Below, in pieces: positions 5,547-33,699 of a stretch of 64,000 nucleotides of DNA. This stretch comes from Candidatus Nomurabacteria bacterium (GTDB taxonomy: Bacteria; Patescibacteriota; Minisyncoccia; Phycocordibacterales; UBA918): contig CP060229.1 of NCBI GenBank assembly GCA_023898585.1, positions 314,709-378,708 on the forward strand, in the 5' to 3' direction. Positions within the stretch are counted from its first letter, which is position 1; each line of letters starts with the position of its first letter. Both the position numbers and the translations under genes were made by a program. The notes below the pieces were generated by a model. It was not told the origin of the DNA. It searched no databases and saw only the letters and a list, made by a program, of their open reading frames with translations.

Positions 5547-5564
5547 GACGTGACTAAGGGGATG

Positions 5565-5597: not shown

Positions 5598-5604
5598 TTA
5601 CCAT

Positions 5605-5633: not shown

Positions 5634-5725
5634 AAACTACATTTTCCTCATTAACCAACACAAGTTCGGAGGACGACAAAGTGAGCACTTACGAACCTGA
5701 ACCCTCTCCTTGAATTAAGAAATTC

Positions 5726-6055: not shown

Positions 6056-6067
6056 GGACTCGATCTG

Positions 6068-6095
6068 ACTCCCGCCCCAGCGGGAGTTCTGTTTT
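6068..6095 (+). terminator. Intrinsic terminator
   Basis: actcccgc-ccca-gcgggagt followed by TCTGTTTT. Confidence 0.5.
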
Positions 6096-6127
6096 ACAAA
6101 CTGATGAAACAGTTTGGTCGTGCAGGG

Positions 6128-6160
6128 TTGATTTTTGCATAAAATATGCTATTATCATGC
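6128..6160 (+). promoter_or_regulatory. Putative rpsO promoter (TTGATT-N17-TATTAT) preceding a ~140-nt leader
   Basis: -35/-10-like hexamers; a long untranslated leader precedes rpsO. Confidence 0.35.
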
Positions 6161-6297
6161 GAACCTATATCCTCGTTAGGATTTTAAAAACTAACTTTTA
6201 GGTATACGGGTTTATTATTCCGGACCAGATGGTGCCACTCGTGTCTTTGGGCATATACGTGGAAATACACGATCGGTTACGTAACAGAAATAACACT

Positions 6298-6564
6298 ATG
6301 CTATCAAAGCGAATAAAAGAAAATACTATCAAGAGCACCCAGCGTCACGACAAAGACACCGGTTCACCGGAAGCACAAGTTGCTCTTTTGACCAGAAAAA
6401 TTGAGGAGTTGTCCACTCACTTACGTAAGCACAAAAAAGATTTTCATTCACGTCGCGGACTGCTACAAATGGTGGCAGACCGTCGCAATCACCTGAAGTA
6501 TCTTCAGAAGAAAGACGAGAAGGCTTACGATGCACTCATTAAAAAGCTTGGTCTAAAAAGATAG
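6298..6564 (+). CDS. rpsO: 30S ribosomal protein S15
   Basis: 88-aa product with S15-type LSKRIKEN...[10 protein letters not shown]...[16 protein letters not shown] sequence; the ORF-track start at 6229 is an upstream in-frame extension. Confidence 0.9.
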
Positions 6565-17149: not shown

Positions 17150-17965
17150 GTGACGGAAAAATTTGAACACAAAAAAAGTCTCGGGCAACACTTTTTAAAC
17201 AGTGACTATGTGCCGAAAAAAATGTGCGACGCTTCCGCTCTTCAGACGGGGGAGACGGTACTAGAAATTGGACCGGGCACCGGCATCCTCACAAAGGAGA
17301 TTATAGCTCGGGGAGCAAAAGTGATTGCCATCGAGGCTGACCGGCGGGCGATTTCTGCTCTGGAAGCCAGCTTCCAGACAGAAATCGCCCGCGGTCAGCT
17401 CACCATTCACCACCACGACGCTCGCTCTCTCGACCCTGCCCAATTTAACCTTGAAAAACAAGGTTACAAGGTAATTTCCAACATACCATACTACCTTTCT
17501 GGACACCTGTTCAGAGCCCTACTTGATACCGATTGCCAACCGACCGATTTGGTTTTTCTTGTCCAGAAGGAAGTCGCTCAACGTATCGCTCGTGACCGAA
17601 AAGAATCTTTACTTTCACTTTCCATTAAAGTTTTTGGTGACCCTTCATATATATGTACGATTAAAAAAAGTCATTTTACTCCACCTCCCAAAATTGATTC
17701 GGCCATCGTGGCTGTAAGAAAAATTGGACGAGGTAATTTTGACAATCTCCCGTCTGACTTTTTTTTCAAATTACTCAACCTCGGCTTCTGCCAAAAACGC
17801 AAACAGCTTATCGGCAACCTAAGCGCTGAATTCCCCCGCAATATTTTAGAAAAAATACTTACTGATTTGTCGCTTCCTTTGGACACGAGAGCCGAGGACA
17901 TTTCGGTCGAAACGTGGCTCGAATTGTGTTCGAAATTGTATTCAACAGTCAAAACACAGACGTAA
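17150..17965 (+). CDS. rsmA: 16S rRNA (adenine1518/1519-N6)-dimethyltransferase
   Basis: QHFL N-terminal motif, SAM-binding LEIGPGTGILT, NIPY motif. Confidence 0.85.
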   Translation: MTEKFEHKKSLGQHFLNSDYVPKKMCDASALQTGETVLEIGPGTGILTKEIIARGAKVIAIEADRRAISALEASFQTEIARGQLTIHHHDARSLDPAQFNLEKQGYKVISNIPYYLSGHLFRALLDTDCQPTDLVFLVQKEVAQRIARDRKESLLSLSIKVFGDPSYICTIKKSHFTPPPKIDSAIVAVRKIGRGNFDNLPSDFFFKLLNLGFCQKRKQLIGNLSAEFPRNILEKILTDLSLPLDTRAEDISVETWLELCSKLYSTVKTQT

Positions 17966-18058: not shown

Positions 18059-18949
18059 ATGCAGGAGCAGAGTAGCAAAAAGGTTGTTGGAGCTACCATT
18101 ATTGGTTTTGCTTTGGTGGCACTCGCCTACACGGTCGGCAATTTTGGCGAGCGAAAAAACGCCGTTCAACCAGCCAGCGTCAGGGCGACATCACCGGTCG
18201 AACGCGTATCTATCGAGGTGACGGACAATGACAACAACGGTATCGAGGACTGGCGAGATCAATTTGTCACCACTGCTCCGGTTGTGCTCGACAAAGCCTC
18301 ATCCACCTATGTCAGACCTGAGACCTTAACGGGAAAAATGAGTATTGATTTCATGGAAAACATCATCCGTTCGCGCGGTTATGGTGAGTTTGGACGAAGC
18401 GACGAAGAAGTGATTAGTGATACGGTTAATTATTTGGTGAGAGAAACCGCCGATAAGCTTTATGGTAAATCAGATATTACCATCATGGAGGAATGGGACG
18501 ATCAAGATATAGTGAATTACGCCAACACGGTGGCTGCTACCTTATACCGACACAACATTCCCAACATGGATTCAGAACTCACAATACTTAACGATATCGT
18601 GAAAAATAAGGAGGAAAATCGAGTGGTTGAACTCAAATCATTAATGAATGCGTACCGAAACTACCGAGACGACACTTTGAAAATACCGGTTCCTAAGTTC
18701 TTGGCTAAAGAACATCTGGATTTGATAAATACCTACCATGCTGTATTTAAAGACATCGAAGCCATGTCGATTGCGCTTGAGGATCCGGTGGTTTCACTAC
18801 TGCGTCTGAAGCGCTACGAAGATGACGCCACCGGACTCGGTTACGCTCTAAAAAACATGTACTTGGCACTCGAACCTCACGCCGGCTTGTTCACGACGGA
18901 AGACCCGGCTGTGTTGTTTGTTATTTTTAGTCCCGATTATCAATTATAA
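18059..18949 (+). CDS. Hypothetical membrane-anchored protein (N-terminal TM); first gene of the T4SS-like locus
   Basis: ORF plus hydrophobic N-terminus; no known motif. Confidence 0.4.
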   Translation: MQEQSSKKVVGATIIGFALVALAYTVGNFGERKNAVQPASVRATSPVERVSIEVTDNDNNGIEDWRDQFVTTAPVVLDKASSTYVRPETLTGKMSIDFMENIIRSRGYGEFGRSDEEVISDTVNYLVRETADKLYGKSDITIMEEWDDQDIVNYANTVAATLYRHNIPNMDSELTILNDIVKNKEENRVVELKSLMNAYRNYRDDTLKIPVPKFLAKEHLDLINTYHAVFKDIEAMSIALEDPVVSLLRLKRYEDDATGLGYALKNMYLALEPHAGLFTTEDPAVLFVIFSPDYQL

Positions 18950-18959
18950 TTAATTACCT

Positions 18960-20342
18960 ATGGACACTTTCTTTACGATTCTCAAAAAAACTGTAGTGGC
19001 GACTGTTTTTGTGATTTTTGGTTTCATTGGAACCTACGTTCCGCAAGACTGGGAAAGCGTGAAAGTGGCAGAAGCCGGTGGAGGGGCAGGCGGTGTGGCG
19101 CAAGAGTCAACCCAGATGGCACAATTTGTAGCCGACAAGGCCTTCCAGGCGGCTTCAATCGCTAAGGAAACAATAACAGCCTTCGCCACCGATTATCTCT
19201 ACATCAAGAACTTTTCACTTGATGGTATCGCCTGGGCCTTGGCTAAATCTATCGTCAGCTCGATGGTACAAAGTCTTATCCATTGGATAAATTCCGGCTT
19301 TCAAGGCAGTCCAGCTTTCGTGCAAGACCTCCAAGGATTTCTCATTAACGCGGCCGACGCGGCCATGGGTGAGTACATAGAAAAACTTGGGAGCGTTGGT
19401 TCTTTCATCTGTTCACCGTTTAGGCTCGATATACAAATCGCCATTGCCACTCAGTACCAACTCGGCAGAATTGATCAACCGGCACCAACCTGTACTTTAA
19501 GCGGTATCATAGACAACCTAGAAGGTTTTACTTCCGGACTACAAGGAAGCTTTGGGGAAGGCGGGTGGAACGATTGGTTTGATATTACTTCTTCTCCTCA
19601 TATGTACACCAAATACGGCGCCGCTCTGTCGGCCGAAGTCGGAGCTCGTGCCCAAATCGTCAACGCCAAAGGAGAAGCTTTTTCCATTCTAGATTTTGGT
19701 GACGGATTTCTCTCCGGCGAAATATGCAATACTGTACACGGAGCTGGTGTCGCGAAAAAAGACTGTTTTATCTCCAAGCCGGGTAAAATTATCCAGGAAG
19801 CCTTAACTTTTGATCTTTCTATCGGCCCAAGGTCGCTTATAGAAGCGGACGAGGTTAATGAGGTAATCGGAGCTTTTCTTGGCCAGATCGCCAATAAGGC
19901 TATCACGGGCGCAGCCGGTTTGCTTGGCCTCGGTGGAGCAAACGGCTCTGTCACAGGCTCGTTTGACGCCAATTTTGACCCGGTCTTGTCGACCAACTCC
20001 ACCCTTGATCTAAGCAGAATGCAAAACGCCCGCGCCATCCAAAAAGACTACAACACTCTGGCTACCACCTACCGTTCAAGACTGATTGCTTTCGCTAACG
20101 ATTCTACCAACAGCGCCAGTTTGCGCTCTCAAGCTAGCGCCGGTGCCAACAACGCGCAGGTTATCATGTCGAACACTTCCTCGGACATCATCACCCTTAA
20201 TGAGCTGATAGCCGACCATTCCGATCCGTTTGCTACCGAAGCAGAACAAGACAACATAATGGTCATCTTCTCCGGACTGAATCTTTATTCGGATATAGAC
20301 ATAGACTCATCGAGAGCGGCTTGGGAAGCTATTTTGAAGTAA
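18960..20342 (+). CDS. Hypothetical secreted/membrane-anchored Gly/Ala-rich protein in the T4SS-like locus
   Basis: N-terminal TM; the start is 10 nt after the previous stop. Confidence 0.4.
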   Translation: MDTFFTILKKTVVATVFVIFGFIGTYVPQDWESVKVAEAGGGAGGVAQESTQMAQFVADKAFQAASIAKETITAFATDYLYIKNFSLDGIAWALAKSIVSSMVQSLIHWINSGFQGSPAFVQDLQGFLINAADAAMGEYIEKLGSVGSFICSPFRLDIQIAIATQYQLGRIDQPAPTCTLSGIIDNLEGFTSGLQGSFGEGGWNDWFDITSSPHMYTKYGAALSAEVGARAQIVNAKGEAFSILDFGDGFLSGEICNTVHGAGVAKKDCFISKPGKIIQEALTFDLSIGPRSLIEADEVNEVIGAFLGQIANKAITGAAGLLGLGGANGSVTGSFDANFDPVLSTNSTLDLSRMQNARAIQKDYNTLATTYRSRLIAFANDSTNSASLRSQASAGANNAQVIMSNTSSDIITLNELIADHSDPFATEAEQDNIMVIFSGLNLYSDIDIDSSRAAWEAILK

Positions 20343-20352
20343 AACCACACGT

Positions 20353-22560
20353 ATGAACGTTCTTAAGAAAAACATTCCGACTCTATCGCTACTCGCTCTA
20401 CTGCTCTTAAGTACGCCTTTTGTGGTTTTTGCTCAAGAAGGAGCTATCGAAAAAACATTGTGGTTCATTGCGAACGGTGTTTTCGGGACACTTTTTGGGC
20501 TGGCTGGAATGTTGTTGGATTGGGGTATAAAAGATTTTGTTATCGGTTTTGGTGATTCTTTTACCAAACCGGGTGGAGTGGGTTTTGTGGTCGATGCCTT
20601 GTGGGTGAATGTGCGCGATCTTTTTAATATCACTTTCATTTTCGGCTTGGTCTACATCGGCTTTAAAATGATTCTCGATAGCGACGACTCCAACACCAAA
20701 CGCTGGTTGATCAACCTTATCATGGCGGCTATTCTGGTTAATTTCAGCCTCTATATCACTAAATTGATCGTAGACCTTGCAAATATTACCGCCTCTCAGA
20801 TTGCAATAAACGGTTTCGAGACCGGATCAAAAGAAATCTCTGAACAATTCATGAATTATTTGGGCATCAACAGTGTTTGGGGCCTTGATAAAATACCTTC
20901 ATTGGAGGGTGGGGCATATGGTTACATTTTTGGAGCTGCCATTCTCTTTATCGTCGGCACATTTGTCTTTGCGGCTGGGGGAATAATGCTCATTTTCCGC
21001 TACGGCATGCTTTGTCTCTATATGGTGCTTTCCCCTTTGATGTTTATCGGCTGGGTCTTCCCCCAGCTACAGAGCGAGACTAGTAAGTACTGGAAAGGTT
21101 TTTTGGGGCGAGCCTTCTTTGCCCCCCTTTATCTTTTGCTCTTATTTTTCTCACTAAAAGTTATTGCTGGTTTCTATGGCGCAGACAATAGCTCTCCCGC
21201 CTTCCATAAATTATTTGTAGGCGGGGGTGACAACATTGAACCATCATTTTCAACAACACTGCCACCGTTTATTCTGTCCTGCTTCTTCATGATCGCTTCG
21301 GTCGTTGTCGCCAACAAACTGGGGGCCGATGGCGCCAGCCAAGCACTCCGGATTGGCAACAACCTGCGTGGCCGAGCACAGAGAGGGTTGCAACGAACAG
21401 CTATTGGAGCCACTCGATTCACGGCTTCACAAACTGCTGGTAGGATAGCGAGGCCACTTTCTAATGTGGCCGGCAATTACGCTAACAAGCAAATTACCAA
21501 ATGGCAGGAGGGAAGAGGCAGTGTCATAATGGGTGCTCTCGCCAACACGGTGGCGGGAGACACGATAATGAGAGGAGCGGCGACTAAAATGAAAGGGGCT
21601 AAATTCGGCCTAGCCAACACCTCTGATGAGGAAAGAGCGAAGAAAGACGCCATCAACAAGAGAAATGAAAACGCAGAGATAACCAGAAGAGGAGTGTCTG
21701 CTCAGGAAGAACTCGACAAAGAAAAAGAGACCACGGGAAGCATCGCAACTACCGGTCAGATTTGGGATCAGAGTCAAGGTAAAATGGTTAACCGAAGCAC
21801 CCTCACTCCAGATGAAATTAAAGTTCTACTTGAACAAAACGCAGCCAAAATGCAGAGTGTGGTCACTGGCTACTCCGACAAACAGTTGGAAGAAATGTTT
21901 AATAACGATAGGGAGAAATTTGACAGTATTGTTGGTCATCTTAAGGCCAGCCAATTCGATAAGTTGGTGAGTAGCGACGGAATTCCACAAACCGAGAAAG
22001 GTAAAATGTTGAGCTTAAGACAAAAGACCATTGAGAAAACGTTTATGCAGAACGGTAAAATCCTTACTGAGGAGTTCCAAAACCTCTCCATCGAACAAAT
22101 TGAGGCAATGGGAGACGACTTCATTCGCCAAAACGCACACCTATTCTCTGAAAGCCAGATGGAATCTATTAAGAAGAGCAGTTCGTTCACCGAAAGCCAG
22201 AAGGGCTCCTATATTGGCACCCGAAAGAAGAATCAGGTTGATATGGCAAACGATCCACACCGATTGGAGCAACTGTTCAAACACAACGCTCGAGGTTCAA
22301 CCGGTAGTTATTCAAAAGAAAAGAAAGCGATTGAAATCGCCAGTCTTCCATTCGAAGTGTTTATTGATAGTAGCGGAACACCAAATGATGTCGCTGTAAG
22401 CAAGATAGATGGTAGCGTCTTGGAACAAATTGCTAAAAAAGACACCATGACCGCAGACCAACGAAGAGAAATTGCAAAAGCTGTACGAGGTATCCCGGTA
22501 CCAAACGATAAGGCTATTAAATACTTGAACACCTCTCAAGGAAGAAGATATTACAGCTAA
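20353..22560 (+). CDS. Polytopic membrane protein, VirB6/TrbL-like candidate (signal peptide, ~6-7 TM helices, ~380-aa hydrophilic C-terminal extension)
   Basis: Topology resembles VirB6/TcpH-type channel subunits; no direct motif evidence. Confidence 0.4.
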   Translation: MNVLKKNIPTLSLLALLLLSTPFVVFAQEGAIEKTLWFIANGVFGTLFGLAGMLLDWGIKDFVIGFGDSFTKPGGVGFVVDALWVNVRDLFNITFIFGLVYIGFKMILDSDDSNTKRWLINLIMAAILVNFSLYITKLIVDLANITASQIAINGFETGSKEISEQFMNYLGINSVWGLDKIPSLEGGAYGYIFGAAILFIVGTFVFAAGGIMLIFRYGMLCLYMVLSPLMFIGWVFPQLQSETSKYWKGFLGRAFFAPLYLLLLFFSLKVIAGFYGADNSSPAFHKLFVGGGDNIEPSFSTTLPPFILSCFFMIASVVVANKLGADGASQALRIGNNLRGRAQRGLQRTAIGATRFTASQTAGRIARPLSNVAGNYANKQITKWQEGRGSVIMGALANTVAGDTIMRGAATKMKGAKFGLANTSDEERAKKDAINKRNENAEITRRGVSAQEELDKEKETTGSIATTGQIWDQSQGKMVNRSTLTPDEIKVLLEQNAAKMQSVVTGYSDKQLEEMFNNDREKFDSIVGHLKASQFDKLVSSDGIPQTEKGKMLSLRQKTIEKTFMQNGKILTEEFQNLSIEQIEAMGDDFIRQNAHLFSESQMESIKKSSSFTESQKGSYIGTRKKNQVDMANDPHRLEQLFKHNARGSTGSYSKEKKAIEIASLPFEVFIDSSGTPNDVAVSKIDGSVLEQIAKKDTMTADQRREIAKAVRGIPVPNDKAIKYLNTSQGRRYYS

Positions 22561-22567: not shown

Positions 22568-23143
22568 ATGGAAATCACCAACGAACAACGTGACCAGGCT
22601 TACGAAACAGCAACCCCTGAGCAGAAATATTTGTATGCCGATCCGGAAAGCGGTCAGAAGATGTACGACATTGCGAATAAACACAACATTGTAAATGACG
22701 AGCAATACAATAAATACGCAATGATAGTTGGTGACGTGGTTTTAAATCTACGTAAAAGGTCTGATCTTCCAGCCTTACTGTCCAACTCACTCGGAATTAG
22801 TTCTGAAAAAGCGACTTCTATTGCGACTGACTTGATTGATTTTCTAGATCGTAAACCGATACAAAACACCGAGATCGACCTCTCCGCTGACATCGCAGAA
22901 ACTGAAGCTTCGCTCAAGGCCGTGCCACGCATACGCACCATGATGACCGACATGGACAAGGTTCAAACACCGGGCGAAAAAGTTTACTCTTCGACCCAGG
23001 AAGCAATTTTAAAAGACTCCAAACCAGCTGTTGCCGTTATGGTACCAGTCCCGCTACCGAGACCGACCGCTCCTCCTACCTCTTCTCCACCGCCAATACC
23101 GAAGCCTCAGAACTTCAAAAAAGACACCGGCAGTTGGGGATAG
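22568..23143 (+). CDS. Hypothetical protein with Pro-rich C-terminus
   Basis: ORF only. Confidence 0.35.
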   Translation: MEITNEQRDQAYETATPEQKYLYADPESGQKMYDIANKHNIVNDEQYNKYAMIVGDVVLNLRKRSDLPALLSNSLGISSEKATSIATDLIDFLDRKPIQNTEIDLSADIAETEASLKAVPRIRTMMTDMDKVQTPGEKVYSSTQEAILKDSKPAVAVMVPVPLPRPTAPPTSSPPPIPKPQNFKKDTGSWG

Positions 23144-23192
23144 TTGGAATCTTTAATAATTTTTCAGACACCACCATGTATAATGGTGGTGT

Positions 23193-23609
23193 ATGCGTTT
23201 TGAAGTTCCGCAATTCATTGAAATCGAGGATAAAATTTTCGGACCATTTACTTGGCGACAATTCGTCTATCTGGGCGGAGGAATCGGTTTGGCAGTAATC
23301 ATATTTTTTTATCTGCCCCTCATAGTATTTATTTTGTTCGGCATTCCTTTAGCCCTACTAGCCGGAGCGCTCTCTTTCTATCCGGTCAACAACCGCCCTT
23401 TCTCATTTTTTCTTGAAGCCATCTTCAATTATCTAAGCGGGCAGAGACTGTATCTCTGGAGACAGAAATCAAACATCGTACACCGTGGTTCGAGACCGAC
23501 CAAAACATCAGCTTCGTCAAGAGAAAGAAACCGTAGCCTGCGACCAAAAAGTGACATCGCCTCCCTGGCCCGTAAACTGGAATTACAAGCCCTACAAAAA
23601 ATTGAGTAA
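23193..23609 (+). CDS. PrgI/VirB3-like small two-TM membrane protein
   Basis: 138 aa, short cytoplasmic N-terminus then two adjacent TM helices; positioned immediately upstream of VirB4 as in Gram-positive-type T4SS operons. Confidence 0.45.
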   Translation: MRFEVPQFIEIEDKIFGPFTWRQFVYLGGGIGLAVIIFFYLPLIVFILFGIPLALLAGALSFYPVNNRPFSFFLEAIFNYLSGQRLYLWRQKSNIVHRGSRPTKTSASSRERNRSLRPKSDIASLARKLELQALQKIE

Positions 23610-23611: not shown

Positions 23612-24259
23612 ATGCCAAAATCACAAGCTTCCACACAAGATTTTGTCTCGGTAAGAGACATTAAGGAAAATGTCGTCATCAACAAAAACGGTCAGATGAC
23701 AATGGTGCTTTTGGCTTCTTCCATCAACTTCGCACTCAAGTCGCTCGACGAGCAAAAAGCTATTTTGCAACAATTTCAGCAGTTCTTGAACACGCTTGAT
23801 TTCACTCTGCAAATATTTATCCAGTCAAGAAGGCTGAACATTGAACCATATCTGGCCACGCTCTCCAACTTGGAAGAAAAACAAGACAACGACCTGATGC
23901 GCGTTCAACTGCGTGAATATGTCGAATTTATCCAAACCTTTACACAGGATGTAGACGTGATGAGTAAGAATTTTTTTGTGGTAATTCCTTACTCACCGTC
24001 AAAAATAAACATTGCTAAAGGCATCACCAATCTGTTCACCCCCGGATCGAGCAGAATGATACTGCCGGACGAGACACGTTTTGAAGAACATCGTATTCAG
24101 TTGGAGCAACGCGCGGGGATGGTATCGGAAGGTTTGGCGCGCGTTGGAGTGAGAACCATCACCCTGCAGAAAGATGATTTGGTTGAATTTTTCTACCACC
24201 TCTACAACCCGGGAGACTTGACCGGCTCTTCTCCACAAATTGATAATGAATATAATTAA
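23612..24259 (+). CDS. VirB4/TraC-family ATPase, N-terminal segment (separated from the ATPase body by one in-frame TAA)
   Basis: Same reading frame as 24263..26065; VRDIKENVVINKNGQMTMVLL... resembles the VirB4 N-terminal region. Confidence 0.5.
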   Translation: MPKSQASTQDFVSVRDIKENVVINKNGQMTMVLLASSINFALKSLDEQKAILQQFQQFLNTLDFTLQIFIQSRRLNIEPYLATLSNLEEKQDNDLMRVQLREYVEFIQTFTQDVDVMSKNFFVVIPYSPSKINIAKGITNLFTPGSSRMILPDETRFEEHRIQLEQRAGMVSEGLARVGVRTITLQKDDLVEFFYHLYNPGDLTGSSPQIDNEYN

Positions 24260-24262
24260 AAT

Positions 24263-26065
24263 ATGGGACTAAAAGAACTTCTACAACCACCGCAAAGTGG
24301 TGATCAGGGAAACAAAGACAGCATCAAAGATCAGATGATGACTCTGTCGGACGTAATTGCTCCGTCTGCCGTCAGTATAAATCCGCGCGGAATCAATGTG
24401 AGCGGTGTCACCGCGCGTGTGTACTACGCGGTCTCTTATCCTCGTTATCTAAACGACGGTTGGATTGAGCCGGTCTTGAACATGGCCAAGGAGTTGGATG
24501 TTTCTATTTTTATTCACCCGGTTGATACGGTTGATACTTTGAAGAAATTTCAAAAGAAAGTGGCCGAGGTGCAGAGCCAGATAAACATCAAGGCCGACAA
24601 GGGGGAAGTGCGCGACCCACAACTCGAAGCTGCCTACCGCAACTTGGAGGAACTTAGAGACAAACTGCAACAAGCGGAAGAGAAGCTTTTTGATGTTGGT
24701 TTTTATCTTGCAATCTACGGCGAGAATGACACCGAGATCAACCAAGTGGAAAATGAAGTGCGGGGTATTTTGGACGCCCGTTTGGTGATGGTAAAACCGG
24801 CTTTGTTCCAGCAAGAACAAGGAATAAAAAGTGTCTTGCCCTTGGCAGACGATCAACTCTTGGTGCACAGCAAATTCAACTCGGAACCACTTTCAAGCTT
24901 CTTTCCCTTTACCTCATTCGACCTTACCTCAGACACCGGTATTCTCTACGGCATCAATCGCCACAATTCTTCCTTGGTACTTTTCGACCGATACACGCTC
25001 ACCAACTACAACTCCGTCACCTTCGCCACCTCCGGCGCGGGTAAATCGTACGCTTTGAAATTGGAAATTTTGCGCTCGTTGATGTTTGGCACTGAGGTTA
25101 TCGTTCTTGATCCGGAGCATGAATACGAATACCTGGCCGATGCGACGGGGGGAAGATTCTTTAATATTTCCCTGTCCTCCAACCACCACGTTAATCCTTT
25201 CGACTTACCGCCACCGAGCAAAGATGAGGATCCGAGGGACGTTCTTCGTACCCATATTATCGAGCTGGTCGGACTTTTCCGCTTGATGCTCGGTGGCCTG
25301 ACCGCAGAAGAAGAAACTTTGATCGACCTCGCCATCCAAGAAACTTATGCCTTGAAAGACATCACCGGCGATACAGACTTTGGTGATATGGAACCACCGC
25401 TTCTTTCTGATTTTGAAATGGTGCTCGCGGGAATGGACGGTAGCAATTCACTAATCACCCGACTGCAAAAATACACCTCGGGAACCTGGTCCGGTTTCAT
25501 GAACCAACCAACCAACGTGGACATCAACCAAAAGTTTGTGGTGTTTTCACTTCGTGACATGGAGGACGAACTGAAGACCATCGCCATGTACATTATTACC
25601 AACTTCATTTGGGGCTCGATCAGGCGTCGCACCGCCAAGCGACTAATGGTAATTGATGAAGCCTGGTGGATGATGAAATCGGAGGACACCGCTTCTTTCT
25701 TGTTTAGTTTGGCCAAAAGAGGACGAAAGTACTACCTCGGCATCGCCACCATCACTCAAGATGTGGATGATTTTTTACGCTCTCCTTACGGCGTGCCGAT
25801 GATAACCAACTCTTCCATTCAACTTTTGATGAAACAATCACCAACCGCTATCGATAACATTCAAAAAACTTTTAACTTGACCGACGAGGAAAAATATCTG
25901 TTACTTGAGTCCAATGTGGGTGAGGGTATATTCTTTGCCGGACTGAAACACGTGGCTATCAAAATTATCGCCTCGTACACCGAAGACCAAATCATCACTT
26001 CCGACCCGTCTCAACTTCTCCAAATTAAAAAAGCACGCGAAGAACTGCAAGCATCACGTATGTAG
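24263..26065 (+). CDS. VirB4/TraC/CagE-family type IV secretion ATPase (main body)
   Basis: CagE/TrbE/VirB-type N-domain, Walker A FATSGAGKSYALK, Walker B MVIDEAWWMM, C-terminal TQDVDDF region. Confidence 0.8.
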   Translation: MGLKELLQPPQSGDQGNKDSIKDQMMTLSDVIAPSAVSINPRGINVSGVTARVYYAVSYPRYLNDGWIEPVLNMAKELDVSIFIHPVDTVDTLKKFQKKVAEVQSQINIKADKGEVRDPQLEAAYRNLEELRDKLQQAEEKLFDVGFYLAIYGENDTEINQVENEVRGILDARLVMVKPALFQQEQGIKSVLPLADDQLLVHSKFNSEPLSSFFPFTSFDLTSDTGILYGINRHNSSLVLFDRYTLTNYNSVTFATSGAGKSYALKLEILRSLMFGTEVIVLDPEHEYEYLADATGGRFFNISLSSNHHVNPFDLPPPSKDEDPRDVLRTHIIELVGLFRLMLGGLTAEEETLIDLAIQETYALKDITGDTDFGDMEPPLLSDFEMVLAGMDGSNSLITRLQKYTSGTWSGFMNQPTNVDINQKFVVFSLRDMEDELKTIAMYIITNFIWGSIRRRTAKRLMVIDEAWWMMKSEDTASFLFSLAKRGRKYYLGIATITQDVDDFLRSPYGVPMITNSSIQLLMKQSPTAIDNIQKTFNLTDEEKYLLLESNVGEGIFFAGLKHVAIKIIASYTEDQIITSDPSQLLQIKKAREELQASRM

Positions 26066-26079: not shown

Positions 26080-27039
26080 ATGGCGGAGCCTCAAATAGAC
26101 GATAAAGATTTATATAGCCGATCAAAGGGTAGAGGAAAGGCCATTAGCGACCTTTATTACGGCGCGGATCTAAAATCCGTCCCGACGAAAAGACCAGGGG
26201 TTGGAGACCGAATAACCGACCCCGAGCGAAGAGTGTTTAACCCCAACCAGACTTGGAACGTGCGCACTTCAACCATGCCCGGCTCATCCCGCAATCAAGA
26301 ATTCAACCCCGGCAAACCGGACATTTCGACGGAATTCACAGAGGCCCAGAAGGAAAGACTGACTCAGTCTGATTTACTAAACAAAATAGACACCCGGAAA
26401 CAAGAGCCGTACAAACCGATCTCACAAATCGATCGCTCCGCCAGAGTGGAATATTCTTCCGAGCCGGCAGTGGCATCGACGGCGCTGGCGAACAAAATTT
26501 TAGAGAAGGAGAGAGAGAAGAAAAAGAAAAAAACCACTCCTTTAACCCGCGCTAGGGTGACAGGAGTGAATACCGGTATTTGGATTGGTGGAGTGGGTAG
26601 TTGGTTGGTTTTTCAGCTTCCTTTTGCGATCGTGAGCGCGATGATGTTGGGAGTTGCTGGGGGGATAGATGCACTGAGAGCATCAGTCGGAACTATGAAG
26701 AACGAAATGGGAATATGGTACACCCTCGGAAAAGCTTCTGTTGCTACTCTTGATGGGATTGATGGTCTTATATCGAAAATAACTGGTTTCAAAATTTTAG
26801 ATCTTCCGATCAACCTATTCGCACTCACCTATATGGTAGTTTTAGCCTACGGAACCTTCTTATTGATACTTATTTACATCCTATACAAATTAAACCGTTT
26901 TAGGCCTCTGTCTGGAAAAGCAAGTGGTACGAAATACGGTTTTTTCCTTCTCGCTTTTGTGGGCTATGCTATCCCTATTTTAAACATCTTTCCGTGTTTT
27001 ATACCATGGACAATAGCTGTTTGGTTTAAACCAAAATAA
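26080..27039 (+). CDS. Hypothetical membrane protein (hydrophilic N-terminal half, ~4 C-terminal TM helices)
   Basis: ORF and hydropathy only. Confidence 0.4.
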   Translation: MAEPQIDDKDLYSRSKGRGKAISDLYYGADLKSVPTKRPGVGDRITDPERRVFNPNQTWNVRTSTMPGSSRNQEFNPGKPDISTEFTEAQKERLTQSDLLNKIDTRKQEPYKPISQIDRSARVEYSSEPAVASTALANKILEKEREKKKKKTTPLTRARVTGVNTGIWIGGVGSWLVFQLPFAIVSAMMLGVAGGIDALRASVGTMKNEMGIWYTLGKASVATLDGIDGLISKITGFKILDLPINLFALTYMVVLAYGTFLLILIYILYKLNRFRPLSGKASGTKYGFFLLAFVGYAIPILNIFPCFIPWTIAVWFKPK

Positions 27040-27119
27040 TTTGATAATTTAAAATAAAATGCCCAGTCATTAAACTGACTAGGCAAAAATAAACTGGTTT
27101 TGTCGATTGTTGACGTGAG

Positions 27120-27428
27120 CTAAATATCAAACAGCAAAACCGTCTTTTCTTTTAAGATTAAGCCTGGTTTACATTCCTCTCCAACCTCGCGATTCAGTTT
27201 ACAGATCTCATCTACCGAAAGTCCGTAAGTTTTTGCAAACAAGGACAATTCGGTATCTTCATGAGGGAATATGCAAGACTGCCCCTTTGTGTCGAAACAA
27301 TCTTTTTTGTTGAGTTTTTTTACGACGAGGTATTTGACTGCATCAGCAGCCGAAACCTGAGTCGTGAAACCCAGAGCCAGAATCAGTGCAGCTACAACGA
27401 TAGCTGCAAGTTTATTCAACTTGGCCAT
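27120..27428 (-). CDS. Small secreted protein with LysM-like segment and 4 Cys
   Basis: GAGGAGG RBS 5 nt upstream of the ATG at 27428; signal peptide MAKLNKLAAIVVAALILALGFTTQVSA. Confidence 0.4.
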   Translation of the reverse strand: MAKLNKLAAIVVAALILALGFTTQVSAADAVKYLVVKKLNKKDCFDTKGQSCIFPHEDTELSLFAKTYGLSVDEICKLNREVGEECKPGLILKEKTVLLFDI

Positions 27429-27552
27429 GTGGCCTCCTCGCGCCGTGGCGCTGCAAAAATTATGAAAAAGGGACCCCTCCTTGTCCAAGAACATTTGCGC
27501 GTCCATGCGCACCTATCTCTTTCGTACCACAATGTGCTACTTTTGGCAATAG

Positions 27553-27640
27553 GTTATCCACTGTGTTGTCAACAGGTTTTTCCACAGAGTTATTGTTAGC
27601 TTATCCACTGAGTTGGTATTCATTTCCCACAGATTAGTCA
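27553..27640 (+). promoter_or_regulatory. Tandem array of four DnaA-box-like 9-mers spaced ~23-24 bp apart
   Basis: TTATCCACT (27553), TTTTCCACA (27577), TTATCCACT (27601), TTTCCCACA (27623), all in the same orientation, each followed by a degenerate ~14-nt spacer. Confidence 0.45.
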
Positions 27641-27684
27641 ACATGTTCATAAAACCGTCCCTTCATCTGCTATTATTATAAACA

Positions 27685-28656
27685 ATGAGGGCGTTTATAT
27701 TATCTTGCTTAGTAACCTTTCTTTTAATATCCAATCCGACTTTGGCTCAGTTTGACAGCAACTCAATCGGTGCCACCGAACTCGCGATCGAACTGCAACC
27801 GGAATTCCCTCGTCCGGGCGAAGAAGTGATCGCCACTTTGAACGATTATCGGGGTGGGACCTACGGTTCTTCGATTACTTGGGTTTTGGACGGCAAAGAA
27901 ATTCCCGACGCGAAAAACCAAAGACAAACCATCATCACCGCCGGTCCGAGCGGTAAAGTGCAAACCATCGAGATCGTGCTGTCAAAACCGGACGGGGGAC
28001 GAGAAGTGATCAGCAATACTCTCAAACCCTACTACCTCGACGTCATAATAGAACCCCAAACCAGAACGCCGGACTTTTATCTCGGCCGGTCTCTGCCTAG
28101 TATTGGTAGTATTGTAAACGCGACCGCTCTTGTGAGTGGCGTTAATGGATTTCTCGACACCGATCTTATCTACACCTGGAGACTGGGACGAACCGTGTTT
28201 GAAGGCGGGCCTCTTAGAGGTCGTAACAAAATTTCCTTCGAAACCCCGATGGGAAAGGAGATGATTCTTTCGGTCGAAGTAACGAAGCCGGACGGAGAAA
28301 TAATCGCCAGCCGAGCGATGTTTGTGGCTTCGGTCGAACCGGAAATCTATTTTTATGAGGTGAGTACTCTTTTTGGTATTAAGCCGATTCCGGTTGATGA
28401 AAATATTTCACTTATCGGAAATAGTCTCATCATTCGAGCCGAGCCGTATAACCTTGATTCTCGGGTCTTTAATAATCCTGACGTAAGTGAGTGGCAAATA
28501 GACCGTATCACATCAAACAATACCGGAAGCAATCCCTATGAAGTGACACTGAAAAGAAATGACAGCGGATCCGGGTTGTCCGAACTCCAATTTCACGTCA
28601 GAGACTTGAAGCAAATATTACAAGGCGCTAAAGGGGGAACAAGAATAAACTATTAG
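27685..28656 (+). CDS. Hypothetical secreted protein (signal peptide)
   Basis: ORF with cleavable N-terminal signal. Confidence 0.45.
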   Translation: MRAFILSCLVTFLLISNPTLAQFDSNSIGATELAIELQPEFPRPGEEVIATLNDYRGGTYGSSITWVLDGKEIPDAKNQRQTIITAGPSGKVQTIEIVLSKPDGGREVISNTLKPYYLDVIIEPQTRTPDFYLGRSLPSIGSIVNATALVSGVNGFLDTDLIYTWRLGRTVFEGGPLRGRNKISFETPMGKEMILSVEVTKPDGEIIASRAMFVASVEPEIYFYEVSTLFGIKPIPVDENISLIGNSLIIRAEPYNLDSRVFNNPDVSEWQIDRITSNNTGSNPYEVTLKRNDSGSGLSELQFHVRDLKQILQGAKGGTRINY

Positions 28657-28660
28657 TCCT

Positions 28661-29863
28661 ATGAAACGTCCAGTCTTTATCATTATCGGCGCGATTCTAG
28701 TCTTAGTGTTGTTGGTGATTTGGGTATACATGCTTTTCTTCAATAAGCCGAGTGGTGGGGAAGATGAATTCGCCAATCTGAACTTTAACAACACCAACGA
28801 CCCAACCGCTATAGTCGATCAGCCTGAAAACAACGAACCGACAGTTGACGTAATGGGGAAGGAAAGATTGCGACAATTAACAACCAAACCAACCGCCGGC
28901 TACAGGGAAGTACAACGCACACCAAGCTCAACCCCCGAACTGCTCTACATAGAATCCGGTACCGGACACATCTTCTCCATTGATTTAGCGTCTGGGGAAG
29001 AGAAACGTATTTCAGCGACCACAATTCCCTTGAGCACTAAGGGAGAGATAACTCCTGATGGAAAATTCGTTATGATTCAATCAGGCTTTGGCGCCGGTAG
29101 CGAATTCGTCGTCGGGGAAATAAACCCTTCCGATAACACACTTTCCAATAAAGGTTTGAATGAACAGATTGTGAGCTTTTCCGCCACCGACAATAATACT
29201 TTCTTATACTCCATCCAAACCATCGACTCGGTGATTGCGAAAGAATATGATCCACTTAAAGAAACCCAAAAAACACTGTTCGTTGCTCCTTTCAGAGAAG
29301 CGCTGATTGACTGGGGAGACAGCGCTTCTGCTGTGCATTATTTTTACCCTAAAGCGACTAGTAAATTGGAAGGGTTTTTGTATAAAGTCGAAAATGGAAA
29401 AATCTCCAGACTGCCGATTGACGGCTACGGATTGTCAGCTGAGGGCGGTGGCGCTAATGTGATATACAGCAAAGATATGGTTGGTAAATACCAAACCTAT
29501 GTCTACAACCAAGAAAACAACGTGTCTGCTCAATCGCCGGTTAGAGTGATTCCGGAAAAATGCGCGACCGCCAACACCAACACCAGCAAAATATTCTGTG
29601 CCTCCTCAGACAACATAAAAGAGTCGGACTTACCTGATCTTTGGTACAAAGGAAAAGTAACTTACGCCGATGATCTATGGCGAGCGGACACCGATTCCGG
29701 TGGAATGGCATATTTGTTTAACGTGAAGTCTGGGAGTGGGCGTGAGTTGGATATGGTAAATCTAGTGACCAACAAAGACGACAGTAATTTATATTTCACC
29801 AATAAAACCGACGGTTTTTTGTGGATGTTTGAGTTGATTCCGGCTGATGAAAACAGGCAATAA
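28661..29863 (+). CDS. Hypothetical membrane-anchored extracytoplasmic protein
   Basis: N-terminal TM helix; beta-rich composition. Confidence 0.45.
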   Translation: MKRPVFIIIGAILVLVLLVIWVYMLFFNKPSGGEDEFANLNFNNTNDPTAIVDQPENNEPTVDVMGKERLRQLTTKPTAGYREVQRTPSSTPELLYIESGTGHIFSIDLASGEEKRISATTIPLSTKGEITPDGKFVMIQSGFGAGSEFVVGEINPSDNTLSNKGLNEQIVSFSATDNNTFLYSIQTIDSVIAKEYDPLKETQKTLFVAPFREALIDWGDSASAVHYFYPKATSKLEGFLYKVENGKISRLPIDGYGLSAEGGGANVIYSKDMVGKYQTYVYNQENNVSAQSPVRVIPEKCATANTNTSKIFCASSDNIKESDLPDLWYKGKVTYADDLWRADTDSGGMAYLFNVKSGSGRELDMVNLVTNKDDSNLYFTNKTDGFLWMFELIPADENRQ

Positions 29864-29891
29864 GGTAATATGTTTATAGTAAGATAATAAT

Positions 29892-30704
29892 ATGAAATAT
29901 TTCGCCATCTTTGCACTACTCCTACTACCGATTCTTTCCTTCGGGGCTCAGTACCAGCCTTTGGTTGGCATACCAAACGTAGATCCAAACGCTGATTTTA
30001 GTGGCTACATAGAATCCCTTTATATAATGTCGATCAGTATTGCCGGACTGTTGGCGGTTTTCAAGATAATTATCGCGGGTATAAAGTGGATGATGACGGA
30101 CATCGTCACCTCCAAAAGTGAGGCAAAAAAAGACATTCAGGGGGCTTTGATCGGTTTGTTGGTTGTGCTCGGCGCTGTGTTGATTTTGACGGTTATCAAC
30201 CCCGATCTGGTTAAGGTTGATTTAAGACTTGACCCGGCTCCAACTCCGACCCTGCAAAAATCACGTGATACTGAATACTATGCGTTGTTGGAAGAAGACA
30301 TGAAGTATGTTATACCAAGTAATGTGCCTGAAGCTAAAGCAAAAGAACTTTGTCTTTCTAGAAGCGAGACTCTTTGTGAAGAGAATAGGAAGATAGGTTG
30401 TTATGAAGGTGAGTACTATCAGACGAACGATGAGAAAGTTTGTGTCATCAGGGAGAATAATCTCGTCAAAGGTGGTGAGGAGTTTGATTGTGAATGGATA
30501 AGTAGTGAGCCACAACCTTTACAGTGTAGTTTTTCAACTATTTTTGATTGGGACAACTCTTGTAGTGTAATAAGCTGGGATCTTTTCAATGAAGGGTGGG
30601 ATTGTAGCGCCGCTCAAGCAAAATGTAGTGGAGCTGGTTTAGATTATGACACTGATTATGTTTATTCTGGTTCAGTACGCCAAGTAGAATGTGAGTGGCC
30701 TTGA
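29892..30704 (+). CDS. VirB2/TrbC-like pilin-type protein fused to a Cys-rich (12 Cys) C-terminal domain
   Basis: Signal peptide followed by two hydrophobic helices separated by a short charged loop, the VirB2/TrbC pilin architecture; then ~150 aa with 12 Cys. Confidence 0.45.
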   Translation: MKYFAIFALLLLPILSFGAQYQPLVGIPNVDPNADFSGYIESLYIMSISIAGLLAVFKIIIAGIKWMMTDIVTSKSEAKKDIQGALIGLLVVLGAVLILTVINPDLVKVDLRLDPAPTPTLQKSRDTEYYALLEEDMKYVIPSNVPEAKAKELCLSRSETLCEENRKIGCYEGEYYQTNDEKVCVIRENNLVKGGEEFDCEWISSEPQPLQCSFSTIFDWDNSCSVISWDLFNEGWDCSAAQAKCSGAGLDYDTDYVYSGSVRQVECEWP

Positions 30705-33689: not shown

Positions 33690-33699
33690 AAAAAAACCG

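What the first reader, a model, noticed from the sequence alone, without database searches (positions are those of the whole stretch)
23612..26065. VirB4 ATPase reading frame interrupted by a single in-frame TAA
ORFs 23612..24259 and 24263..26065 are in the same frame, separated only by TAA at 24257-24259 followed by AAT and then ATG. Together they give 815 aa, the normal VirB4 length. The first part resembles the VirB4 N-terminal region and the second carries the CagE/TrbE domain and Walker motifs. This could be a genuine two-piece VirB4 expressed by stop-restart coupling, a recent nonsense mutation (pseudogenisation), or a sequencing error.
Basis: seen in the sequence. Interest (0 to 1): 0.6.

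Follow-up and report, generated by a model that had tools for sequence, protein, structure and literature searches.

The report
Two-gene VirB4 ATPase, naturally split
The "interrupted" secretion ATPase is not broken: in this tiny bacterium (Candidatus Kaiserbacteria), as in over 500 related species, the motor protein VirB4 is normally encoded as two adjacent genes, and this arrangement has already been published.

Summary
ORF1 (23612..24259, 215 aa) ends in TAA. AAT follows, and then the ATG of ORF2 (24263..26065, 600 aa) in the same frame.

The stop is neither a sequencing error nor a recent nonsense mutation:
- The junction is identical, base for base, in 8 independently assembled contigs.
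- The best 120 of 1,968 ORF1 homologues are all stand-alone proteins of 208-221 aa.
- In 79 of 79 species-level Patescibacteria genomes that carry both genes, the two are separate. All three relative frames occur (23/30/26), all three stop codons are used, and spacing runs from ATGA overlaps to about 500 nt. The shared frame in this window is therefore coincidence.

ORF1 is a TrsD/TraD-like protein, the detached first half of the VirB4 N-terminal domain. ORF2 holds the second half plus the ATPase domain. Three results support this:
- The two ORFs match fused VirB4 profiles in the right order.
- Their concatenated model superposes end to end on R388 TrwK/VirB4 (TM-score 0.60).
- A sister clade (Colwellbacteria) encodes the same two parts as one protein of about 790 aa.

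The gene order PrgI(VirB3)-TrsD-VirB4 mirrors trsC-trsD-trsE of plasmid pSK41. Quinonero-Coronel et al. (2025) already described TrsD next to virB4 in Patescibacteria. Verdict: already known, low interest.

The parts
23168..23192 (+). Perfect 10-bp hairpin that contains a -10-like TATAAT (23179..23184) ending 8 nt before the prgI start codon. Probable promoter of the prgI-ORF1-ORF2 transcription unit, giving a leaderless or very short-leader mRNA.
   Evidence: Searches show the hairpin (folding energy -17.7 kcal/mol for the intergenic 49 nt). In one search, 52 of 73 species (71%; 38 perfect) have at least 5/6 of TATAAT ending 5-10 nt before the prgI start. The figure is 14% at ORF1 and ORF2 starts and 0.5% at internal ATGs. 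The hairpin itself is seen only in a subset of the loci inspected (L012, L018, L027 among the 30 listed).
23193..23609 (+). PrgI family protein (VirB3-like membrane anchor of VirB4), 138 aa. Its stop TAA is followed by 2 nt and then the ORF1 ATG.
   Evidence: Pfam PF12666 PrgI, E = 4e-10, 40.5 bits against a cut-off of 27. The same annotation appears.
23612..24259 (+). ORF1, 215 aa: a TrsD/TraD-like stand-alone protein, equivalent to the first half of the VirB4 N-terminal domain (roughly TrwK residues 12-215). Soluble alpha/beta fold with a disordered tail from about residue 203.
24257..24262 (+). Junction: genuine TAA stop of ORF1 plus the 3-nt spacer AAT before the ORF2 ATG.
   Evidence: One search shows the sequence, and it is identical in 8 independent contigs. 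TAA is the commonest stop in the window (24 of 49 genes).
24263..24922 (+). ORF2 residues 1-220: a variable head (about aa 1-24) followed by the second half of the VirB4 N-terminal domain.
   Evidence: NCBIfam CD1110-family VirB4 positions 174-733 align to ORF2 15-565. Pfam TraC_F_IV positions 298-373 align to ORF2 118-194. Secondary structure comes from the model.
24923..26065 (+). ORF2 residues 221-600: VirB4 C-terminal RecA-like ATPase domain. Walker A (GAGKS) lies at 25034..25048 and Walker B (VIDEAWW) at 25649..25669. The stop is TAG at 26063-26065.
   Evidence: PDB 4AG5, E = 1.3e-40 over ORF2 221-580. P-loop_TraG, E = 9e-28. Motif positions.
20353..22560 (+). 735-aa protein of the same gene string, possibly a VirB6/TrbL-like channel subunit (weak evidence).
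   Evidence: Pfam TrbL, E = 0.0062, 16.8 bits, below the cut-off of 25.9. Position is two genes upstream of prgI.

Best explanation
This is the normal, conserved two-gene form of the type IV secretion ATPase VirB4 in a chromosomal T4SS locus of a Candidatus Kaiserbacteria (Patescibacteria) genome.

ORF1 is a TrsD/TraD-like protein. It corresponds to the first of the two subdomains of the VirB4 N-terminal domain. In the R388 structure, VirB3 wraps around this domain, and it also mediates VirB4-VirB4 dimer contacts. ORF2 is a 'short' VirB4 with the second N-terminal subdomain and the Walker A/B ATPase domain.

The two genes lie directly after prgI (VirB3-like). They are most likely co-transcribed from a -10 element immediately upstream of prgI.

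Inferred, not shown here:
- ORF2 is translated either by ribosomes that terminate at the ORF1 TAA and restart 3 nt later, or by Shine-Dalgarno-independent initiation in the A/T-rich junction.
- The two polypeptides then assemble non-covalently into a VirB4-like protomer that docks on PrgI at the membrane.

The shared reading frame in this genome is coincidental.
For: (1) The split is conserved.
- The best 120 of 1,968 homologues are 208-221 aa.
- Of the best 150 representatives at the 50% identity level, only one is a full-length fusion.
- All 79 species genomes that carry both genes keep them separate. Relative frames are 23/30/26 (chi-square p = 0.63). ORF1 stops are TAA 52, TAG 12 and TGA 15. 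Spacing shows 6 ATGA overlaps and 48 gaps of 1-14 nt.

(2) It is not an error.
- The junction is identical in 8 contigs: 7 from separate sequencing runs plus an NCBI metagenome-assembled genome.
- NCBI annotates two CDS, and the longest contig carrying them is 994,774 bp.

(3) ORF1 plus ORF2 equals a VirB4.
- Both match the fused VirB4 profiles CD1110 and VirB4_plasma in the right order.
- Position 447 of the profile built on the fused homologue P0158 aligns to TrwK 446.
- The ORF1 model (pLDDT 89) hits only TrwK/VirB4 chains with probability 0.99 or more.
- hhalign places ORF1 4-133 on TrwK 12-133.
- The concatenated model aligns over 833 columns to TrwK chain 8rtd_O, with TM-score 0.60 and E = 8e-27.
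- At least 116 clusters of naturally fused proteins of about 790 aa exist in Colwellbacteria and relatives, and they carry both PF26593 and PF19044.

(4) There is a precedent.
- pSK41 has trsC-trsD-trsE. ORF2 versus TrsE gives E = 5e-35, aligned in parallel from the N-terminus.
- ORF1 matches the NCBIfam TrsD model at E = 6.5e-5, and hhalign gives E = 1.2e-3 over 164 columns.

(5) The literature already covers it.
- TrsD is the most abundant T4SS component in Patescibacteria. It usually lies next to virB4 and is essential in Ca. Southlakia epibionticum (PMC12102498).
- VirB3 wraps the VirB4 N-terminal domain, residues 15-400 (PMC9259494).

(6) Expression.
- The -10 element is conserved before prgI (71%) but not before ORF1 or ORF2 (14% each).
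- Shine-Dalgarno motifs precede only 5 of 49 window genes.
Against: - No experiment here shows that the two polypeptides bind each other or PrgI.
- The AlphaFold model was made from an artificial concatenation, guided by fused homologues, so it cannot prove non-covalent assembly.
- Sequence similarity of ORF1 to TrsD and to TrwK is weak (22.8 bits against a family cut-off of 200; hhalign probabilities 19.5% and 1%).
- 19 of 78 orthologous junctions have gaps of 19-496 nt, so tight translational coupling is not universal.
- A TATAAT at 24251..24256, 6 nt before the ORF2 ATG, leaves open an independent leaderless ORF2 transcript in this genome.
Confidence: 0.88

Rival explanations
1. Recent nonsense mutation: a once-continuous 817-codon virB4 was pseudogenised by a sense-to-TAA change.
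For: The two ORFs share a frame, with only TAA and AAT between them. Fused proteins of about 790 aa exist in a related clade.
Against: None of the 79 related species genomes that carry both genes is continuous here, and they use all frames and all stop codons. The nearest homologues, at 73-82% identity, are all 208-221 aa. ORF2 starts at a conserved M-G/A-L/I... start. Both ORFs are intact and conserved, at 46-79% and 58-90% identity. The fused clade is only about 48% identical and has a linker about half as long.
Confidence: 0.01
2. Sequencing or assembly error created a false stop.
For: The source is a metagenome-derived genome, and one Logan contig (L002) does contain indels elsewhere in ORF2.
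Against: The 64-nt junction is identical in 8 contigs: 7 from separate sequencing runs plus an NCBI metagenome-assembled genome. Six of the eight are 100% identical to the window over 1.7-8.6 kb. The same two proteins also occur on a 994,774-bp contig.
Confidence: 0.01
3. Recoding: TAA is read through or reassigned, so that a single 817-aa VirB4 is made.
For: The arrangement is in frame. Some Patescibacteria relatives (Gracilibacteria and Absconditabacteria) are known from general knowledge to reassign UGA.
Against: TAA is the most frequent stop of ordinary genes in the window (24 of 49), and all three stops are in use. Orthologous junctions are out of frame in 56 of 79 genomes and include ATGA overlaps, so read-through cannot be the conserved mode of expression.
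Confidence: 0.01
4. ORF1 is an independent accessory factor. On this view it is a TrsD with a job of its own, such as an assembly chaperone or regulator that arose from an old duplication of a VirB4 subdomain. It would not be a structural piece of the ATPase protomer, and ORF2 would be a self-sufficient short VirB4.
For: - ORF2 is about the same length as other short monoderm VirB4s such as TrsE (672 aa).
- ORF1 and the ORF2 N-terminal part show the same order of secondary-structure elements, which fits an ancient duplication.
- Some ORF1 homologues carry long disordered tails of up to about 240 aa.
- 19 of 78 junctions are not tightly spaced.
Against: - Canonical VirB4 (TrwK) contains both subdomains, and the concatenated model aligns to it end to end.
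- Natural fusions in the same order exist in at least 116 protein clusters.
- The two genes are adjacent in 79 of 79 genomes.
- hhalign finds no sequence similarity between ORF1 and the ORF2 N-terminal part.
Confidence: 0.09

Closest known systems
TrsD-TrsE of staphylococcal plasmids pSK41/pGO1 (TraD-TraE of pIP501): the MPF_FATA pGO1 subclass of monoderm conjugation systems
   Same: The gene order is the same: a VirB3-like gene (trsC / prgI), then a protein of about 215-227 aa (trsD / ORF1), then a VirB4 of about 600-672 aa (trsE / ORF2). ORF2 versus TrsE gives 25% identity and E = 5e-35, aligned in parallel from the N-terminus. ORF1 hits the TrsD/TraD NCBIfam model and aligns to TrsD across nearly its full length.
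   Different: This locus is chromosomal and lies next to dnaA, with no relaxase or coupling protein seen in the cluster, rather than on a conjugative plasmid. The ORF1 score against the TrsD model (22.8 bits) is far below the family cut-off of 200, so it is a distant relative and not an equivalog.
Patescibacteria chromosomal T4SS as described by Quinonero-Coronel et al. 2025 (Microb Genom 11:001409; PMC12102498) and Wang et al. 2023 (Cell; Ca. Southlakia epibionticum)
   Same: The components match: VirB4, TrsD, PrgI/VirB3 and a VirB6-like protein. The context also matches, close to dnaA and ksgA. That paper reports TrsD as 'the most abundant T4SS component' (2,272 homologues, 1,664 next to virB4), as remotely homologous to the VirB4 N-terminus, and as essential in strain ML1.
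   Different: Nothing substantive differs; this window is one more instance. In the passages retrieved, the paper does not mention three things seen here: the fused Colwellbacteria-type proteins, the location of the split in a disordered linker, or the -10 element just before prgI.
Canonical single-chain VirB4 (R388 TrwK, 823 aa; PDB 7O41/8RTD) and fused monoderm VirB4s (CD1110 family; Mycoplasma ICE VirB4)
   Same: The total length is similar (815 against 823 aa). The domain order is the same, and the model superposes end to end at TM-score 0.60. The ATPase motifs are present, and a VirB3-like gene lies upstream.
   Different: Here the polypeptide is divided at roughly TrwK residue 215, inside the N-terminal domain (residues 15-400 in TrwK).
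VirB3-VirB4 fusion proteins of some conjugative systems
   Same: Both show that gene boundaries within the VirB3/VirB4 module are evolutionarily plastic (mentioned in PMC12102498).
   Different: That case goes the opposite way, fusion rather than fission, and involves a different boundary. No VirB3-VirB4 fusion is present here.

Membership tests
VirB4/TraC-type T4SS ATPase (applied to ORF2) | Walker A and Walker B nucleotide-binding motifs in a RecA-like C-terminal domain homologous to solved VirB4 C-terminal domains | tested here: met
   GAGKS at aa 258-262 and VIDEAWW at aa 463-469. PDB 4AG5, E = 1.3e-40 over aa 221-580, and TrwK, E = 9.5e-5.
VirB4/TraC-type T4SS ATPase (applied to ORF2) | Score above the curated cut-off of a VirB4 family model | tested here: met
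   NCBIfam NF045971 (VirB4-like, CD1110 family): 359.7 bits against a cut-off of 325, although the match covers only model positions 174-733 of 752. Pfam P-loop_TraG: 97.5 bits against 25.8.
VirB4/TraC-type T4SS ATPase (applied to ORF2) | Complete N-terminal domain of about 400 aa on the same polypeptide | tested here: not met
   ORF2 has only about 220 aa before the ATPase domain. The missing first part (CD1110 model positions 2-122) is matched by ORF1.
VirB4/TraC-type T4SS ATPase (applied to ORF2) | Encoded next to a VirB3-like membrane protein within a T4SS gene cluster | tested here: met
   PrgI (PF12666) lies at 23193..23609, and a weak TrbL/VirB6 match lies at 20353..22560.
TrsD/TraD family conjugative transfer protein (NF041427) / Pfam PF26593 TraC-like (applied to ORF1) | Score above the curated NCBIfam cut-off | tested here: not met
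   22.8 bits, E = 6.5e-5, against a cut-off of 200. hhalign against pSK41 TrsD gives E = 1.2e-3 and probability 19.5%. ORF1 is a distant relative only.
TrsD/TraD family conjugative transfer protein (NF041427) / Pfam PF26593 TraC-like (applied to ORF1) | Carries the PF26593 domain | tested here: inconclusive
   Precomputed annotation gives PF26593 for the exact ORF1 protein and for all 120 best homologues. The local Pfam scan did not return that model and found only TraC_F_IV at E = 0.048.
TrsD/TraD family conjugative transfer protein (NF041427) / Pfam PF26593 TraC-like (applied to ORF1) | Stand-alone protein of about 200-230 aa encoded between a VirB3-like gene and a short VirB4 gene | tested here: met
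   The window order prgI-ORF1-ORF2 matches pSK41 trsC-trsD-trsE.
TrsD/TraD family conjugative transfer protein (NF041427) / Pfam PF26593 TraC-like (applied to ORF1) | Homology to the N-terminal portion of VirB4 | tested here: met
   NCBIfam VirB4_plasma, E = 1.9e-11 at positions 99-248 of 894. Foldseek returns TrwK only. Natural fusions exist.
Pseudogene by nonsense mutation | Close orthologues are continuous, with a sense codon at the site of the stop | tested here: not met
   0 of 79 species genomes are continuous at this point, and the best 120 homologues are all 208-221 aa.
Programmed stop-codon read-through or stop reassignment | The in-frame arrangement of the two ORFs is conserved across relatives, and the stop codon is not used as an ordinary terminator | tested here: not met
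   Frames 0/1/2 occur in 23/30/26 genomes. TAA terminates 24 of 49 genes in the window.
Translationally coupled gene pair (termination-reinitiation) | Stop and start overlap or lie within a few nucleotides in most orthologues, with direct evidence of dependence of downstream translation on upstream translation | tested here: inconclusive
   Spacing fits coupling: 58 of 78 junctions lie between -14 and +14 nt, including 6 ATGA overlaps. Dependence of ORF2 translation on ORF1 translation cannot be tested with these tools.

The most novel reading that the evidence does not exclude
The covalent link between the two halves of the VirB4 N-terminal domain may be a switchable character in Patescibacteria. 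It is split in Kaiserbacteria and Paceibacteria-type lineages and fused in Colwellbacteria-type lineages.

The free TrsD-like subunit would then be functionally meaningful. For example, it could be made in different amounts from the ATPase. It could also decide which ATPase protomers dock on PrgI/VirB3, tuning assembly of the essential, non-conjugative T4SS of these epibionts.

The disordered Pro/Gln/Thr-rich tails on some TrsD homologues, up to about 240 aa long, could be an added interaction or spacer module.
Probability: 0.12. Interest if true: 0.4.

Novelty: already known. Interest (0 to 1): 0.12.

Why it matters
The main value is for annotation hygiene. Automated or by-eye scans will keep flagging this gene pair as a broken virB4, and in the NCBI records found here ORF1 is named 'hypothetical protein' and ORF2 'DUF87 domain-containing protein'. 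Reading the pair as TrsD-like plus short VirB4 gives correct T4SS inventories in Patescibacteria, where this system is essential for the epibiotic lifestyle. The split also offers a natural dissection of the VirB4 N-terminal domain that structural biologists could exploit. It is not, however, a new kind of system.

Tried and rejected
- **PDB sequence search with ORF1 alone:** found only chance hits (LolA and a methyltransferase, E about 1). Sequence alone does not reach solved VirB4 N-terminal domains.
- **PDB profile search with alignment A1:** the profile was dominated by the one fused member. It reported only the ATPase domain, but it did show that profile position 447 aligns to TrwK 446.
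- **Internal duplication test:** hhalign of the ORF1 family against ORF2 residues 1-242 found nothing (E = 0.37). The two N-terminal halves share only the order of their secondary-structure elements.
- **First search for related loci attempt:** failed because the alignment was too diverse. It was repeated with closer sequences.
- **Failed inputs:** It was replaced by natural fusion proteins.
- **An own promoter for ORF2:** a 10/12 sigma-70-like match lies at 24218..24247 and a TATAAT at 24251..24256. Promoter-like matches in the region are no commoner than in shuffles (20 against 18.8). Only 14% of orthologous ORF2 starts have such an element, against 71% for prgI, so I treat it as probably fortuitous.
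- **The two 600-aa proteins inside the fused clade (P0289, P0385):** I considered them as independent fissions. They begin inside the last helix of the ORF1-like domain, so they are more likely truncated gene calls.
- **The pELF plasmid paper:** its 'TraD' turned out to be an unrelated VirD4-type protein.
- **Rfam:** found nothing in the region.
Full report
**1. The observation**

The sequence is as described.
- ORF1 runs from the ATG at 23612 to TAA at 24257-24259 (215 aa).
- AAT follows at 24260-24262.
- ORF2 starts at the ATG at 24263 and ends in TAG at 26063-26065 (600 aa). It is in the same frame as ORF1.
- ORF2 has Walker A (GAGKS, aa 258-262) and Walker B (VIDEAWW, aa 463-469).
- ORF2 residues 221-580 match the crystal structure of the Thermoanaerobacter pseudethanolicus VirB4 C-terminal domain, PDB 4AG5, at E = 1.3e-40.
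- The Pfam hits are P-loop_TraG, AAA_10 and DUF87.

**2. Is the stop real?**

Yes.
- The exact ORF1 protein is encoded on 14 public contigs.
- The 64-nt junction is identical in all 8 contigs fetched. Seven come from different sequencing runs and one from the NCBI assembly GCA_020428745.1. Six of the eight are 100% identical to the window over 1.7-8.6 kb.
- NCBI holds the two proteins as separate CDS of Candidatus Kaiserbacteria. ORF1 is MCA9355124.1/USN92555.1, 'hypothetical protein'. ORF2 is MCA9355123.1/USN92556.1, 'DUF87 domain-containing protein'. One source contig is 994,774 bp long.
- The window uses all three stop codons (TAA 24, TAG 18, TGA 7 of 49 genes), so the standard bacterial code applies.

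**3. Is it a recent break?**

No.
- A search of 5.8 billion proteins with ORF1 gave 1,968 hits. The best 120 (73-100% identical) are all 208-221 aa long.
- An exhaustive search of representatives clustered at 50% identity gave 1,971 hits. Of the best 150 (33-70% identical), only one, P0158 (797 aa), also contains an ORF2-like part.
- I fetched the locus from 80 species-level genomes of Patescibacteria, out of at least 584 that encode a relative, and measured the junction in each.
- In 79 of the 79 loci that contain both genes, the genes are separate.
- The frame of ORF2 relative to ORF1 is 0, 1 or 2 in 23, 30 and 26 genomes (chi-square p = 0.63).
- The ORF1 stop is TAA in 52 genomes, TAG in 12 and TGA in 15.
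- Spacing shows 6 ATGA overlaps, 4 overlaps of 14 nt, 48 gaps of 1-14 nt and 19 larger gaps of up to 496 nt.

The shared frame in this window is therefore the one-in-three coincidence, not the scar of a nonsense mutation. Read-through or codon reassignment cannot be the conserved mode of expression.

**4. What the two proteins are**

*Match order on fused VirB4 profiles.* NCBIfam profiles place the two ORFs one after the other on fused VirB4 families.
- ORF1 aa 9-128 match CD1110-family VirB4 positions 2-122 of 752. ORF2 aa 15-565 match positions 174-733, at 359.7 bits, above the cut-off of 325.
- ORF1 aa 3-141 match Mycoplasma ICE VirB4 positions 99-248 of 894 (E = 1.9e-11). ORF2 matches positions 282-893.

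*Similarity to TrsD.*
- ORF1 also hits the TrsD/TraD family model (E = 6.5e-5). The score of 22.8 bits is far below the family cut-off of 200.
- In plasmid pSK41 the order is trsC (VirB3-like per PMC4027160), trsD (227 aa), trsE (672 aa VirB4).
- ORF2 aligns to TrsE from its N-terminus (25% identity, E = 5e-35).
- The ORF1 family aligns to TrsD over 164 columns (E = 1.2e-3).

*Structure.*
- An AlphaFold2 model of ORF1 (pLDDT 89, pTM 0.79) finds TrwK/VirB4 of plasmid R388 as its top 14 PDB matches, at probability 0.99-1.00. The next hit has probability 0.30.
- hhalign puts ORF1 4-133 on TrwK 12-133 (E = 0.057).
- A model of ORF1 and ORF2 joined head to tail, guided by natural fusion proteins (pLDDT 79), aligns to full-length TrwK over 833 columns with TM-score 0.60 and E = 8e-27.
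- The TrwK N-terminal domain spans residues 15-400 (PMC9259494). ORF1 therefore corresponds to its first half, and ORF2 aa 1-220 to its second half.

*Where the split falls.*
- The split is in the middle of the N-terminal domain, not at the boundary with the ATPase domain.
- The junction region (residues 201-240 of the concatenated model) has pLDDT 54-69.
- Distant ORF2 homologues align only from residue 25 onward.
- Some ORF1 homologues carry Pro/Gln/Ala/Thr-rich tails of up to about 240 aa at this point.
- In fused relatives the linker between the conserved YNP and APS motifs is 23 aa (median), against 46 aa summed over the two pieces here.

The break therefore sits in a variable, disordered linker.

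**5. Natural fusions**

Searching with P0158 showed at least 116 protein clusters of 775-807 aa, 59-100% identical to it and mostly named Candidatus Colwellbacteria. They carry both PF26593 (TraC-like, the ORF1 domain) and PF19044. The same two modules thus occur covalently joined in a sister lineage, in the same order. This is the strongest comparative argument that ORF1 works as part of the VirB4 protomer.

**6. Context and expression**

The cluster is chromosomal.
- ksgA (17150..17965) and a UvrD helicase lie upstream. dnaA (32304..33689) lies about 6 kb downstream, beside a dip in G+C content.
- PNPase, PolA, TyrRS and a PilB-like ATPase are also in the window.
- Directly upstream of ORF1, with a 2-nt gap, lies a PrgI family (VirB3-like) gene.

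Expression signals:
- A TATAAT at 23179..23184 ends 8 nt before the prgI ATG.
- Such a -10-like element (at least 5/6 match, ending 5-10 nt before the start) precedes prgI in 52 of 73 species (71%). It precedes only 14% of ORF1 or ORF2 starts and 0.5% of internal ATGs.
- Shine-Dalgarno motifs precede only 5 of 49 genes in the window.

I infer one prgI-ORF1-ORF2 transcript with a leaderless or very short leader. ORF2 would be translated either by reinitiation after the ORF1 stop or by Shine-Dalgarno-independent initiation in the A/T-rich junction. This step is an inference. The TATAAT at 24251..24256, 6 nt before the ORF2 ATG, leaves a private leaderless transcript possible in this genome.

**7. 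Mechanism proposed**

Shown here:
- The two-gene architecture is conserved.
- ORF1 is homologous to the first half of the VirB4 N-terminal domain.
- ORF2 is homologous to the rest of VirB4.
- The pair is adjacent to the VirB3-like gene.

From the literature (PMC9259494): in R388, VirB3 wraps around the VirB4 N-terminal domain, and that domain mediates the VirB4 dimer interface.

Inferred: ORF1 binds ORF2 non-covalently to complete the N-terminal domain and links the ATPase hexamer to PrgI in the membrane.

**8. Comparison with the literature and novelty**

Quinonero-Coronel et al. 2025 (PMC12102498) report the following about TrsD:
- It is the most abundant T4SS component in Patescibacteria, with 2,272 homologues in 2,221 assemblies, of which 1,664 lie next to virB4.
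- It is essential in Ca. Southlakia epibionticum ML1.
- These T4SS loci often lie near dnaA and ksgA.

The window is a textbook instance of that description, so the finding is already known. The small increments here were not found in the passages I retrieved from that paper:
- the frame, stop and spacing survey of the junction;
- the fused Colwellbacteria-type clade;
- the placement of the split in a disordered linker in the middle of the N-terminal domain;
- the conserved -10 element just before prgI.

**9. Verdict**

The 'interruption' is a genuine gene boundary of a conserved, published two-gene VirB4 (TrsD-like plus short VirB4). Pseudogenisation, sequencing error and recoding are each rejected, at about 1% residual probability each. 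Interest is low (0.12).

Noticed in passing
window 23168..23192 (and the region upstream of prgI in L009-L088): A perfect 10-bp hairpin (ACACCACCAT-GTATA-ATGGTGGTGT) abuts the prgI start codon and contains a TATAAT ending 8 nt before the ATG. A -10-like element at this distance precedes prgI in 71% of 73 species, which suggests a conserved promoter and a leaderless prgI-trsD-virB4 mRNA. The hairpin itself occurs only in a subset of the loci inspected (L012, L018, L027 among the 30 listed).
   Followed up: partly
window-wide (49 gene starts): Shine-Dalgarno-like motifs precede only 5 of 49 genes. Many starts instead have TATAAT, TATACT or TATGAT-like hexamers about 6-12 nt upstream (for example 4055..4966(-), 26080, 44195..45187(-), 50245, 61535). 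This hints at widespread leaderless transcripts in this genome.
   Followed up: partly
window 32304..33689, with the G+C dip at 32000-36000: dnaA lies about 6 kb downstream of virB4, beside the lowest G+C content in the window (0.37-0.39), probably the oriC region. ksgA (17150..17965) flanks the cluster on the other side. This matches the published T4SS context in Patescibacteria.
   Followed up: partly
proteins P0158, P0271-P0389 (not in the window): A large clade, mostly labelled Candidatus Colwellbacteria, encodes the TrsD-like module and the VirB4 ATPase as one protein of about 790 aa, with a linker of about 23 aa. The split or fused state therefore differs between Patescibacteria lineages. 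Which state is ancestral was not determined.
   Followed up: partly
proteins P0131, P0155, P0189, P0200, P0210 and others (ORF1 homologues of 280-443 aa): Some TrsD-like proteins carry long, low-complexity Pro/Gln/Ala/Thr-rich C-terminal tails of up to about 240 aa, exactly at the point where the split occurs. Their function is unknown.
   Followed up: no
model of ORF1+ORF2 (window 23612..24922): ORF1 and the N-terminal 220 aa of ORF2 show the same order of secondary-structure elements (three strands, helix, strand, two helices, strand, helix, strand, helix). This suggests the VirB4 N-terminal domain is an ancient tandem duplication. hhalign finds no sequence similarity between the two (E = 0.37).
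   Followed up: partly
window 24218..24256: Inside the last codons of ORF1 there is a sigma-70-like match (TTGACC, 18 nt, GATAAT; 10 of 12) and a separate TATAAT 6 nt before the ORF2 ATG. An internal promoter for ORF2 is possible in this genome, but it is not conserved (14% of orthologues).
   Followed up: partly
L002 (Logan contig SRR14493007_87796), positions 4508..6307: In this one assembly the ORF2 gene is called in two pieces (169 and 259 aa), and the contig has 9 gap openings relative to the window. These are probably assembly indels in a low-coverage contig.
   Followed up: no
window 9623..11434, 18059..20342, 22568..23143, 26080..30704, 41036..44098, 45384..47462: Several sizeable ORFs (191-1,020 aa) in and around the T4SS cluster have no Pfam or NCBIfam hit. 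Those flanking virB4 may be the unrecognised VirB8-, VirB1- or pilin-like components discussed in the literature.
   Followed up: no
window 47875..49629 (-): A PilB/GspE-type ATPase (T2SSE, E = 1.8e-107, with an MshEN domain) points to a type IV pilus system in the same 64 kb.
   Followed up: no
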